Of a stretch of 64,000 nt of DNA, positions 24,001 to 27,000 are shown one piece after another. A program made the position numbers. The DNA is from a virus. The stretch's first letter is position 1, and the number at the start of each line of letters is the position of its first letter. The stretch lies in the IMG/VR virus record IMGVR_UViG_3300006139_000001; one strand, written 5' to 3'.

Positions 24001-27000
24001 TCTGAGTTTCATTAACCATCTTATCAAGTGTCAAATCACAATACTCATCAACCCAATCTCCAAGATAATAGAAACGGTCAATTACACTGCGAGTCTTTCC
24101 GTTCTGGAATGTGCCAAAAAGAATAGGGTCTTTCCGGCGGCGTTCTTTCTCAACTTGGCGCTCAACTTTTCCCGTATAGTCAGTGAATACAATATAAAGC
24201 TGGTCAAACTTGTCTTTTACTCTCTCAATAACTGCGACAATCTCATCAGGAATTTCACGCTCATAGCTCTCAATGTCGATTATCTTTACTACATCAGAAG
24301 CGACTTCATTGATATAGAATTCAATATCATCACGATACACAAAAGTGTTAATTCCCATTGCAACGATTTCTCGCTCTTTTTCAATACAATTCAAATGGAA
24401 AAGCAACTTTTCCATTCCTCGTGTTTGACCAGTGATTTTGTACTTATTAAGAAGCTCCATGCAGTTATCATAAATTGCTCGTAGCTGCTCGTCTGTAATA
24501 TGCTGCTTTCTTTCTTTTACAATATCAAAATATTCTTGCGGTGACATCTTATTTTCTTCCATGTTTAAGACTCCTTTATATGTATCATTTTCGTGACTTC
24601 ACGAAAATGGTCTAAATTTTATTCCAATTCAAATATAGATGCTAAAAGTATTATCATTTTGTACCTTTGTAATTTCATATAGTTCTAAAACAAAATGAAG
24701 AAATCATTAGACGATACTATGATTTTGTACCTATGTAATTTCATATAGTTCTAAAACTTTGTCAAGTCGTAGTTTTCAAAATCTTCTATTTTGTACCTAT
24801 GTAATTTCATATAGTTCTAAAACCCGTGACAAAGGCTTTAAGCCTAACAGCGTATTTTGTACCTATGTAATTTCATATAGTTCTAAAACCTCAAATTACA
24901 ATATGGCTTTTGTGAGTAGAATCACTCTCACATTTCGGCATCAAAATCTACCGTTACTTACAGTGTTAAACTGCTTTCTTCTTATCATCAACAAAATCTG
25001 TTGACATTGCGATATTTCTTGCAGCATTAAAATCAGCATTGATTTTCTTACCAAAATTATCACACTCTGGATTCTTGCAAATAAATTCAGACTGACTAAT
25101 ACGCTGACCTTTTTCCCAATGACCACAACATGAGCAGACTTGAGAAGTATGATATGGATTTACATTTCTTACAATAATTCCATATTTGTTTGCTTTGTAT
25201 GTAATAAATTGCTGCAACTGATAATATGACCAATTTCTAAGCACAAACTGATTTTTATTTCCATTGCCAATACCGGACAAATCTTCAATGTTAATATACT
25301 TTGCTTTATTTTTTACTGCAAAATCAACAACCTGTTTGCTTACCCAATGGTTATATGTCTTAGTCCAATTTGATTCATATTCTTTGAACCTATCCATAGC
25401 TTGCAATTTCTTTTTTCTACCATGTCCACCATTTGACTGAGCAATAGACTTCTGCAACCTTTTGTATTGGTTCTGAATTTTTGTCCTAACACGAAGAAAG
25501 TCATCTTTTGAACCAATAAATTTTTTATAAACATCGTTTGTATTTAATGCACAAACCGCAGGAATTGCTAATCCAACATCAACTCCGACACAAATATTTT
25601 CATCGAGCTTAATTTCGCATTGTGGCATACTCAAAGAGAGATTTAAGATTATTTTTGTTCCATCAATCTCAATTGTGCTTTGGTTAATACTATAGTTTTC
25701 CTCAAATATATTTCCAAAGACATTGCGAATTTCGACAGACTTATGCGGATTTCCCAAAATGACCTTAAAAGTAATTCCATTTGCAAATTTCAAAAATAAT
25801 TCTAAATCCTTATTATACAAATGACTTAAAAATTCAAAATGGTTCTCATAGTTATGATAAAACCCATTATCACATTTACTTTTTGTGCGAAGCCTTACAT
25901 AGTCTGGATGAATTATTAAAGGGTTTGTATCTCTATATGTAGGCAAAGAAATTTTTCCATATGCCAATCCTTTTTTCATTGCATTCTTAAAATCTTTTTC
26001 AACCTTTTGTGTTACACTCGAAGCAGACGGTAAACCCTTTGCAAATTCAATAGATAAATTATATGCACTTCCTTTTTTGCTTGTACTAATTCTTCCATAC
26101 AAATTACGAAGTTCTTTTCTATCCTCTTTTGTCGCTTCATTCTGCATTGAGATATAAAGTGCACTCATATATTGATTCATCGCCAAATTTTGTGCTTTCA
26201 TACCATCACGCAAATATTTATAGACACGATTTATTTCTTCTTTATCTCCAATCGGAAATAATTGAATTTTTCTGGAAAGTATATTATTCATAATAAATCT
26301 CCTATTTTGAATATTTACAAGGAATATACAATTTTGGTAACTATGTAAAATCAGATATATCTAAAACCTCAAATCACTCATTGTTAATTACATAGTTTTT
26401 TATGAGTGAAGTTTTCCTCACAATCTAGCTGCCAAATCAGCCATTACTTACGGCTTATCCGCTTTCTATTATTTGCATTTATTTTTCTGATTTAACGCTA
26501 ACCGTTCCAAAATGATAACTTCCACATCTTAATCACCTATACTTCAATATTCAACCATCTTTTATTCTTCCAGTACTTCCATTGGATTCTACCCTGGGCA
26601 ATTCTAACTTCAATATCTTCTACATTACCTTGATTCAATAGCCAATCACGATGTTTCTTCTTCTCAATATCAGTAATGGAATAAAGTTTCGCCCAATAGT
26701 CAAGTTCATGGTCAATCTGTTCTACAGACCAATCATAATCAGACATTTGTGCTTGCCTATTAAATTCGGCATGAATTTTGTTCATCTCTGCCTCTGCATT
26801 TGCATAGCTCGTAAACACATTGCGGAAATTTACACTTATATATGACGGATGATGTTCAAACATTGGATACTCTCGCACAATTCTCCATCCGTATTTATTA
26901 TCAATTTCACTTCTGAAATGTGCATGGTCATTATCTTCTACATTTACAAAATAACCTTCTTTATATAGCTGCAAAATTTTCTCTGCATCACTTATACTGT

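What the first reader, a model, noticed from the sequence alone, without database searches (positions are those of the whole stretch)
26292..26455. Duplicated scaffold plus lone repeat upstream of cas12f: natural single-guide or regulatory guide
Seen: the upstream segment (GTAAGTAATGG..GATTT..TGTGAG..ACTCA..ATTTGAG, then a degenerate repeat at 26367-26331) is homologous to the 76-bp leader between cas12f and the array (GTAAGTAACGG..GATTT..TGTGAG..ACTCA..ATTTGAG, then a repeat). Both contain an anti-repeat (AACTATGTAATT; TGTAATTT) able to fold onto the following repeat. The would-be guide after the upstream repeat is the 5' UTR of cas12f. Inference: two fused tracr-repeat RNAs resembling a TnpB omegaRNA-to-CRISPR intermediate; the upstream one may be a tracrRNA or an autoregulatory guide.
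Basis: partly seen in the sequence, partly recalled or inferred. Interest (0 to 1): 0.7.

Follow-up and report, generated by a model that had tools for sequence, protein, structure and literature searches.

The report
Phage Cas12f with two tracr-repeat cassettes
A 160-kb phage carries a miniature CRISPR nuclease (Cas12f) flanked by two copies of a compact helper-RNA gene, each fused to its own CRISPR repeat; the upstream copy is a conserved one-repeat "empty" cassette in the nuclease gene's leader, and nothing found here shows it to be a self-regulating guide.

Summary
The two copies are homologous from AGAAAGC (26467 upstream; 24979 downstream, overlapping the cas12f stop codon) to the end of the first repeat.

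A covariance model finds only these two copies in the 160-kb phage genome, and 50 such modules beside cas12f homologues in other phages.

Compensatory changes support four stems and a pseudoknot. The stem-1 loop pairs with the last 5 nt of its own repeat, and an anti-repeat pairs with the repeat's 3' half. This is the bipartite tracrRNA:repeat pairing known for type V.

The "degenerate repeat" is not degenerate. It belongs to a second repeat family that forms 2- to 5-repeat upstream arrays in relatives. Scaffold and repeat are 87-94% conserved against a relative whose cas12f third codon positions are 63% identical. The would-be guide is not conserved.

Both junctions carry the type II-A leader anchor ATTTGAG|GTTT.

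Best reading: a second tracr-leader plus single-repeat cassette, probably co-transcribed with cas12f and foldable as a natural single guide. A DNA-targeting autoregulatory guide is not supported. No expression data could be obtained.

Earlier notes of this scan describe the same architecture on other phage genomes.

The parts
24966..26291 (-). cas12f gene, 441 aa (P0001). The RuvC motif residues D238, E336 and D420 are invariant in the family alignment, and the zinc-finger cysteines are present.
   Evidence: Pfam Cas12f1-like_TNB 7e-20 and NCBIfam guided_TnpB 3e-54. PDB CnCas12f1 8hr5 3.5e-80; the 415-aa chain 9nzp matches over full length at 6e-70. Invariant residues come from A2. Single copy in the genome.
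26368..26467 (-). Upstream tracr-like scaffold. Stem 0: 26462-26459 / 26453-26450. Stem 1: 26443-26438 / 26431-26426, with loop ATTTGG 26437-26432. Stem 2: 26421-26414 / 26410-26402. Anti-repeat: 26397-26386. Linker, then leader anchor ATTTGAG 26374-26368.
   Evidence: CM R1 hit 26332-26447, 108.8 bits. Covariation. 87% identical to L072, against 63% at cas12f third codon positions.
26332..26367 (-). Lone upstream repeat of the second repeat family (36 nt, GTTTTAGATATATCTGATTTTACATAGTTACCAAAA). Its 3' half pairs with the anti-repeat. Its tail CCAAA (26337-26333) pairs with the stem-1 loop.
   Evidence: 34/36 identical to L072 repeat 2. The same family forms a five-repeat array in L003.
26292..26331 (-). 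Sequence after the lone repeat: the would-be guide, which is also the cas12f 5' UTR. RBS AGGAG lies about 27-32 nt after the repeat; ATG at 26291.
   Evidence: Sequence. Not conserved against L072. No second genomic match. A 21-22-nt match to ClpP-like genes of two other phages is at chance level.
24890..24979 (-). Downstream tracr-like scaffold. Stem 0: 24974-24970 / 24964-24960, with the cas12f stop codon (24968-24966) in its loop. Stem 1: 24953-24949 / 24940-24936, with loop containing ATTTTG 24947-24942. Stem 2: 24931-24911. Bulged anti-repeat: 24906-24893, merging into leader anchor ATTTGAG 24896-24890.
   Evidence: CM hit 24854-24957, 99.5 bits. Covariation. Fold z = -3.2 with guide included.
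24656..24889 (-). Downstream CRISPR array. Four 36-nt repeats: 24854-24889, 24788-24823, 24722-24757, 24656-24691. Three 30-nt spacers: 24824-24853, 24758-24787, 24692-24721.
   Evidence: the repeat finder family D1, spacing 66; sequence. The repeat tail CAAAAT is complementary to the downstream stem-1 loop.

Best explanation
The upstream segment is a second, self-matched guide-RNA cassette of this phage's Cas12f. It consists of a roughly 100-nt tracrRNA-like scaffold, which doubles as a CRISPR leader ending in the type II-A anchor ATTTGAG, fused in cis to a single repeat of its own repeat family.

It is the minimal, zero-spacer state of the small upstream arrays (2 to 8 repeats) that relatives carry at the same place.

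Inferred steps: the cassette lies on the cas12f strand only 40 nt before the start codon, so it is most likely transcribed as the leader of the cas12f mRNA. The RNA can fold by itself into a single-guide shape made of stems 0, 1 and 2, the anti-repeat paired to the repeat's 3' half, and the stem-1 loop paired to the repeat tail as a pseudoknot. Cas12f can therefore load on it without a separate tracrRNA. The 3' 'guide' is simply whatever follows the terminal repeat, here the 5' UTR. It is not a selected regulatory spacer.

The downstream cassette works the same way and gives spacer 1 a cis-linked scaffold. Spacers 2 and 3 need a scaffold in trans.

New spacers would have to be installed by a host type II-A-like Cas1-Cas2 machinery, because the phage has no cas1.
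For: Shown:
1. Only two R1 hits occur in the 160-kb genome, both on the cas12f strand and flanking the gene.
2. The fold is supported by covariation in 21 modules. 94.1% of cells pair, against 34-46% when partners are slid. 19 of 29 pairs change on both sides. In the pseudoknot helix 5 of 5 pairs are compensatory and 97% of cells pair.
3. Stem 0 pairs in 94.5% of cells, against 20-46% slid.
4. Each window scaffold matches its own repeat: loop TTTGG with tail CCAAA upstream, ATTTTG with CAAAAT downstream.
5. Relatives carry real arrays of the upstream repeat family directly before cas12f: L003 five repeats, L072 and L075 two each. About half of some 30 close loci have modules on both sides.
6. 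Purifying selection: against L072 the upstream scaffold is 87% and the repeat 92-94% identical, while cas12f third codon positions are 63% and the post-repeat stretch 49%.
7. The ATTTGAG|GTTT junction is present in both cassettes. PMC5382924, citing Wei 2015, reports that this leader end plus one repeat suffices for type II-A adaptation.
8. No Cas1 in the phage.
9. Compact cis forms in L017, L002, L011 and L013 lack the repeat's 5' half, so the scaffold there can only act as a fused single guide.
10. A pseudoknot between tracrRNA and the repeat's 3' end is the rule in type V (10.1101/2025.01.20.633832).

Inferred: co-transcription with cas12f, loading of Cas12f on the RNA, and acquisition by host enzymes.
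Against: - No RNA data.
- No convincing sigma-70 promoter was found upstream of the scaffold; hits were at shuffle level.
- None of four real spacers tried (three from this window, one from L075) found a protospacer. Activity and PAM are therefore untested.
- Strong conservation of a cassette whose guide has no target calls for a function beyond 'empty array'. Candidates are a trans tracrRNA role or leader-level regulation (see rivals).
Confidence: 0.68

Rival explanations
1. Auxiliary trans-acting tracrRNA. The upstream scaffold is kept mainly to supply extra tracrRNA for spacers 2 and 3 of the downstream array, whose own scaffold is tied in cis to repeat 1.
For: Duplex energies: the upstream anti-repeat pairs with the downstream repeat as well as with its own (-11.0 against -10.8 kcal/mol). 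That is better than the downstream scaffold's own bulged anti-repeat (-9.2). Conservation without a conserved guide fits a scaffold-only function.
Against: The pseudoknot is weaker on the downstream tail (-1.7 against -4.5). Loop and tail covary within each module across the family, which argues that each scaffold serves its own repeat. The lone repeat's 3' half and tail are fully conserved against L072, which a pure trans tracrRNA would not need. In L072 the upstream anti-repeat matches that locus's downstream repeat less well (my reading).
Confidence: 0.2
2. Cis regulation at the RNA level. Cas12f binds the scaffold-repeat in the leader of its own mRNA. Binding, or the RNase trimming that follows, lowers translation or mRNA stability and so couples guide production to nuclease level. 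This mirrors TnpB cutting its omegaRNA out of its own mRNA.
For: Upstream arrays in many lineages end 10-40 nt before the start codon. The RBS then lies inside or next to the terminal 'guide', as in L008, L003 and L072. The cassette is conserved but the guide is not. Precedent: TnpB processes its own mRNA (PMC10278001).
Against: Nothing here tests binding or translation. In this window the RBS starts about 27 nt after the repeat, outside a 20-nt guide. Tight spacing is common in phage genomes anyway.
Confidence: 0.15
3. DNA-targeting autoregulatory natural single guide, as with Cas9 tracr-L or CreR. The guide directs Cas12f to a partly matching site at its own promoter.
For: The position upstream of the cas gene and the single-guide fold resemble tracr-L (10.1101/2020.05.21.102756).
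Against: The guide's only full match is the DNA that encodes it, preceded by the repeat tail as in any array. No seed match lies near the locus or elsewhere in the genome (best is 13 nt at guide positions 16-28). The guide is unalignable with the closest relative.
Confidence: 0.04
4. A real one-spacer guide. The 30 nt after the repeat are an acquired spacer against a ClpP-like protease gene of competing phages, and the terminal repeat has been lost.
For: A 20-mer scan of IMG/VR hit two phage contigs, both in Clp protease genes (Pfam 5e-26 and 1.7e-26). Identity is 21-22 nt and starts exactly at the repeat/guide junction. The remaining bases stay in frame (ILNIYKEYT against IKNIYKEYT).
Against: The per-site chance of this AT-rich 20-mer is about 1.2e-11. 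I assume about 1e11 searchable sites; the collection's size in bases was not given. That makes roughly one chance hit expected, and the two hits are one homologous site. There is no relic of a terminal repeat after 30 nt (p = 0.26). The 27-mer is absent from the metagenome collection. The flanks ATCT and ACTT share no clear PAM.
Confidence: 0.08
5. Non-functional relic of a collapsed upstream array.
For: Only one repeat remains, followed by non-spacer sequence. Repeat numbers vary widely among relatives.
Against: 87-94% identity to L072, against about 60% at synonymous-type sites. All helices and both repeat pairings are intact.
Confidence: 0.07

Closest known systems
Type V-F1 CRISPR-Cas12f with tracrRNA (CnCas12f1, PDB 8HR5; the Cas12f orthologues of PMC13186708, PDB 9NZO-9NZT)
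   Same: The effector family matches (8hr5 3.5e-80; 9nzp over full length 6e-70). The guide is a multi-stem tracrRNA that pairs with the repeat at two places, including a pseudoknot with the repeat's 3' end.
   Different: The scaffold is short, about 100 nt including the leader anchor. It is physically fused to the first repeat, present twice with two different repeat families around one nuclease gene, and encoded by a phage. The arrays are in type II-A format. Published tracrRNAs of this family are described as separate RNAs joined artificially by a GAAA loop.
TnpB omegaRNA and TranC transposon-CRISPR intermediates (Jin et al., Cell 2025, as cited in PMC13565253 and 10.64898/2026.03.27.714800)
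   Same: A single RNA carries scaffold plus guide at its 3' end. The downstream scaffold overlaps the 3' end of the nuclease ORF. Relatives have omegaRNA-like compact units next to CRISPR arrays.
   Different: No transposase or transposon ends were looked for or seen. The gene is single-copy in the genome. The protein is closest to solved Cas12f1 chains rather than to solved ISDra2-type TnpB. I could not read the TranC paper itself.
Re-fused tracrRNA plus half-repeat guides of nuclease-dead Cas12f/sigma-E systems (PMC10691335; 10.1101/2025.06.10.658865)
   Same: The same evolutionary route is described: the array is minimised next to the tracrRNA, then the tracrRNA fuses with half a repeat into a single guide that keeps the repeat's 3' end.
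   Different: Here the RuvC motif residues are intact, full repeats and real arrays persist, there is no sigma factor, and the context is a phage.
Cas9 tracr-L natural single guide (10.1101/2020.05.21.102756)
   Same: A tracr-derived RNA upstream of the cas gene that can fold as a single guide.
   Different: tracr-L has a guide segment matching the cas promoter next to a PAM. No such target exists here.
Type II-A CRISPR leader-repeat junction (PMC5382924)
   Same: ATTTGAG|GTTT junction, 36-nt repeats and 30-nt spacers.
   Different: No Cas1 domain in the phage. Cas9, Cas2 and Csn2 were not searched for. The 'leader' is at the same time the tracrRNA of a type V effector.

Membership tests
Type V-F1 CRISPR-Cas12f | Miniature TnpB-derived effector with RuvC and a zinc-finger TNB domain | tested here: met
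   Pfam PF07282 7e-20; NCBIfam guided_TnpB 3e-54; PDB Cas12f1 chains 1e-66 to 1e-80. D238, E336 and D420 are invariant in A2.
Type V-F1 CRISPR-Cas12f | Adjacent CRISPR array | tested here: met
   Four 36-nt repeats at 66-nt spacing downstream, and one repeat upstream.
Type V-F1 CRISPR-Cas12f | tracrRNA with anti-repeat and a pseudoknot to the repeat's 3' end | tested here: met
   Covariation in 21 modules: 94% paired, pseudoknot 5/5 compensatory. This shows the pairing only; that the RNA exists was not tested.
Type V-F1 CRISPR-Cas12f | RNA-guided, PAM-dependent dsDNA cleavage | not testable with these tools
   No protospacer found for four spacers tried. PAM unknown.
TnpB/omegaRNA or TranC | Guide scaffold overlapping the 3' end of the nuclease ORF, with guide at the RNA's 3' end | tested here: met
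   Stem 0 of the downstream scaffold spans the stop codon.
TnpB/omegaRNA or TranC | Transposon context (TnpA, element ends, multiple copies) | tested here: not met
   One copy in the genome. Pfam gave no hit for the four nearest neighbours; a tyrosine integrase lies about 1.6 kb downstream. Element ends were not searched for.
tracr-L / CreR-type autoregulatory guide | Guide partly complementary to a PAM-flanked site in the cas promoter | tested here: not met
   No second match of the 39-nt post-repeat sequence in the genome. The guide is not conserved.
Type II-A-format CRISPR array | Leader end ATTTGAG flush with a GTTT... 36-nt repeat; 30-nt spacers | tested here: met
   26374-26368 and 24896-24890. 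Motif definition from PMC5382924.
Type II-A-format CRISPR array | Cognate Cas1-Cas2-Csn2-Cas9 in the same genome | tested here: not met
   No Cas1 domain in the 160-kb phage; the other three were not searched for. The array pattern is absent from 185,579 species genomes, so no host array was identified.

The most novel reading that the evidence does not exclude
The leader of the cas12f mRNA is itself a Cas12f guide RNA. The nuclease loads on the scaffold-repeat at the 5' end of its own message, and in relatives on the terminal repeat that abuts the RBS. Each transcript is then either translated or matured into a ribonucleoprotein. This would give built-in feedback between nuclease and guide supply, a 5' mirror image of TnpB cutting its omegaRNA from the 3' end of its mRNA. 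The same element also serves as a type II-A-style leader that lets the phage borrow host spacer acquisition, so the newest spacer is always the one fused in cis to a scaffold.
Probability: 0.17. Interest if true: 0.7.

Novelty: new variant of a known kind. Interest (0 to 1): 0.45.

Why it matters
The work defines, with covariation support, a very compact natural guide scaffold for a 441-aa Cas12f. The scaffold is already joined to its repeat, which makes it a ready template for small single-guide designs.

It shows one nuclease served by two scaffold/repeat sets whose RNA-RNA pairings have diverged together.

It adds living examples along the path between omegaRNA and tracrRNA plus crRNA: full arrays, one-repeat cassettes and compact fused guides within one phage protein family.

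The type II-A leader anchor at the tracr/repeat junction suggests how phages without cas1 could refill type V arrays.

Tried and rejected
- Targets and PAM: exact 20-22-mers of window spacers 1-3 and of one L075 spacer found nothing in IMG/VR. The whole array against INPHARED gave only chance-level hits. The post-repeat 40-mer against INPHARED gave only E >= 0.2 hits. A cross-search of 118 spacers from related loci against all held DNA found only spacers shared between sister arrays.
- Host array: a repeat-spacer-repeat pattern found nothing in genome contigs. The first genome contigs protein scan also found nothing.
- ClpP lead: the 27-mer is absent from metagenome contigs. A relic terminal repeat is not significant (p = 0.26). 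The own genome has no clear ClpP homologue.
- Rfam: no family matches either scaffold.
- Promoters and terminators: hits at shuffle level, none convincing.
- PAM by analogy with the 415-aa solved Cas12f (9nzp): chain positions 117 and 119, the numbers the paper gives for RhCas12f's PAM-contacting arginines (I take 9nzp to be that protein), align to K137 and K139. Position D77 aligns to P88. No inference was drawn.
- Rejected: the 'degenerate repeat' reading and the DNA-level autoregulation reading (see rivals).
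Full report
**Setting.** All genes in this stretch are on the minus strand. The window is part of an IMG/VR virus record of 160,718 bp, rated 100% complete.

ORF 24966-26291 encodes a 441-aa protein, P0001:
- It has the Cas12f1-like TNB domain, scores 3e-54 against NCBIfam guided_TnpB, and matches solved Cas12f1 chains (8hr5 3.5e-80; 9nzp over full length 6e-70).
- The RuvC motif residues D238, E336 and D420 are invariant in an alignment of 30 homologues.
- Homologues are abundant: 1752 hits, the best at 60-77% identity, several on long contigs, and one cluster is labelled as an endonuclease of Caudoviricetes.
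- The phage has no Cas1 domain.

**The observation.** Downstream of the stop codon lies a 76-nt gap, then four 36-nt repeats with three 30-nt spacers. Upstream, 26455-26368 resembles that gap and is followed by one repeat (26367-26332), 40 nt, then the ATG. Alignment A1 confirms the homology. A covariance model built from related loci (R1) hits only these two places in the whole phage genome, at E 6e-19 and 4.5e-17.

**What the scaffold is.** I fetched 70 viral loci encoding relatives and contigs for the three closest proteins. R1 finds 50 modules in 74 sources. All are on the cas12f strand and all run directly into a repeat. About half of the roughly 30 close loci have modules on both sides of the gene.

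On a 21-module alignment (A3) the proposed fold pairs in 94.1% of cells, against 34-46% when partners are slid. 19 of 29 pairs change on both sides. The elements are:
- stem 1;
- stem 2 (GTGAG/CTCAC plus a variable distal part);
- an anti-repeat pairing with the repeat's 3' half;
- a pseudoknot between the stem-1 loop and the last five bases of the repeat.

In the pseudoknot all five pairs show compensatory change and 97% of cells pair. Examples of loop/tail pairs seen in the loci are TTTTG/CAAAA, TTTGG/CCAAA, TTCAG/CTGAA, TGTGA/TCACA and TTCGA/TCGAA.

A further 5' hairpin, stem 0, preceded by the conserved AGAAAG, is supported in the window's subclade: 94.5% paired against 20-46% slid, with 4 of 5 pairs compensatory. 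This moves the start of homology to 26467 upstream and 24979 downstream. The cas12f stop codon then sits in the loop of stem 0, as in TnpB omegaRNAs that overlap the 3' end of tnpB.

Pairing of a tracrRNA with the repeat's 3' end as a pseudoknot is described as the rule for type V tracrRNAs (10.1101/2025.01.20.633832). Rfam has no matching family.

**The upstream repeat is not degenerate.** In L072 (protein 76% identical, same flanking genes) the upstream module has two repeats, 33/36 and 34/36 identical to the window's lone repeat, and the downstream module is reduced to one repeat. L075 has two upstream repeats. L003 has five, ending 18 nt before the ATG.

The window's two scaffolds are each tuned to their own repeat. 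The upstream loop TTTGG matches tail CCAAA. The downstream loop ATTTTG matches CAAAAT.

Against L072, identities are as follows:

| Region | Identity |
|---|---|
| cas12f third codon positions | 63% |
| Upstream scaffold | 87% |
| Upstream repeat | 92-94% |
| Downstream scaffold | 81% |
| Downstream repeat 1 | 94% |
| 40 nt after the lone repeat | 49% (unalignable) |

The cassette is therefore under purifying selection and the 'guide' is not.

**Leader function.** Both scaffold/repeat junctions read ATTTGAG|GTTT. I checked it in the sequence and in PMC5382924. That paper identifies this leader end as the most common type II-A motif, and reports that the last 10 nt of leader plus one repeat are sufficient for adaptation. 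With 36-nt repeats, 30-nt spacers and no Cas1 domain in the phage, the simplest reading is an acquisition-competent array at zero spacers. Spacers would be installed by host enzymes. That last step is inference: no host array of this family was found.

**Natural single guide.**
- Minimum-energy folds place the anti-repeat on the cis repeat and the loop on the tail.
- In L017 and L002/L004/L005 the scaffold is followed only by a short hairpin plus the repeat tail.
- In L011 and L013 such a compact unit precedes a 30-nt spacer and then full repeats. In these the scaffold can only work in cis.
- Similar re-fusion of tracrRNA and half a repeat has been described for nuclease-dead Cas12f lineages (PMC10691335; 10.1101/2025.06.10.658865). 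Splitting of omegaRNA into tracrRNA and crRNA is the theme of the TranC work (cited in PMC13565253).

**Testing the regulatory-guide idea.**
- The post-repeat sequence has no second match in the genome. The best is 13 nt, outside the seed.
- A 20-mer scan of IMG/VR gave two hits, both in ClpP-like protease genes of other phages. Identity starts exactly at the repeat/guide junction.
- The per-site chance of this AT-rich word is about 1.2e-11. I assume about 1e11 searchable sites, because the collection's size in bases was not given. Roughly one chance hit is then expected.
- The two hits are one homologous site. No relic terminal repeat follows (p = 0.26). The 27-mer is absent from the metagenome set. 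I treat the ClpP match as a lead, not a finding.
- The three window spacers and one L075 spacer gave no protospacers, so no PAM is known.
- A tracr-L-like DNA target is therefore not supported.

**What stays open.**
- Duplex energies show the upstream anti-repeat pairs with downstream repeats as well as with its own (-11.0 against -10.8 kcal/mol). Its pseudoknot there is weak (-1.7 against -4.5). The downstream scaffold fits the upstream repeat poorly (-3.0 and -3.2). An auxiliary trans-tracrRNA role is therefore possible.
- Upstream arrays in many lineages end 10-40 nt before the start codon. This suggests co-transcription with cas12f and allows feedback at the mRNA-leader level, by analogy with TnpB self-processing (PMC10278001).

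**Earlier scan notes.** Notes e1-3669539, e1-3425909 and e1-1968374 describe the same architecture in other phage genomes. Note e1-5647228 suggests that fused cassettes could cut relatives lacking the insert. I found no such empty-site allele for this guide.

**Verdict.** This is a genuine, conserved second tracr-leader/repeat cassette of a phage Cas12f. It is a new variant of a known kind. The autoregulatory reading is not supported.

Noticed in passing
L077:2312-2331 and L078:641-660 (against window 26310-26331): The first 21-22 nt after the lone repeat are identical to a conserved IYKEYT-coding stretch of ClpP-like protease genes in two other phage contigs. Identity begins exactly at the repeat/guide junction. 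About one such hit is expected by chance under my assumed collection size, so the status is unresolved.
   Followed up: partly
window 26402-26409 and 26374-26381: In the upstream scaffold, the 3' arm of stem 2 (TCACTCAT) is also perfectly complementary to ATGAGTGA in the linker just before the leader anchor. This 8-bp alternative helix would exclude stem 2. By my reading L072 keeps 5 of these pairs. It could be a conformational switch or a coincidence.
   Followed up: no
window 26452-26536: The 85 nt between the upstream gene's stop codon and the scaffold are 87% identical to L072, as conserved as the scaffold itself. This may be a promoter or a further 5' part of the RNA. The sigma-70 scan gave no consensus match inside these 85 nt.
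   Followed up: partly
L072:738-860: The only 'spacer' of the upstream array in the closest relative is 87 nt long and ends with its own RBS-like AAGGAGG plus ATG. It looks like a repeat-plus-leader unit that was duplicated or recombined in, rather than a normally acquired spacer.
   Followed up: no
L017:3788-3865; L002:3808-3888; L011:3809-3887; L013:3809-3890: Compact omegaRNA-like units in relatives: scaffold, short anti-repeat/repeat hairpin, then repeat tail, without the repeat's 5' half or the ATTTGAG anchor. In L011 and L013 the unit is followed by a spacer and full repeats.
   Followed up: partly
window 22455-23330 and 27862-29724: Neighbouring genes on the same strand: a tyrosine integrase-family protein (Pfam 1.8e-10) about 1.6 kb downstream of the array, and a 620-aa protein with an LPD29 domain upstream. 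The four nearest ORFs have no Pfam match.
   Followed up: no
window 24584-24611: A 12-bp perfect hairpin lies between the last repeat and the next gene's RBS. It is scored terminator-like only on the plus strand. On the coding strand it lacks a T tract.
   Followed up: no
L048, L053, L056 (e.g. L053:1545-1684): More distant TnpB/Cas12f-like loci (about 28-30% identity) carry a scaffold with the same stem 1 / GTGAG...CTCAC layout but long stem-2 inserts and different 3' parts. Only L053 reaches the R1 threshold (31 bits).
   Followed up: no
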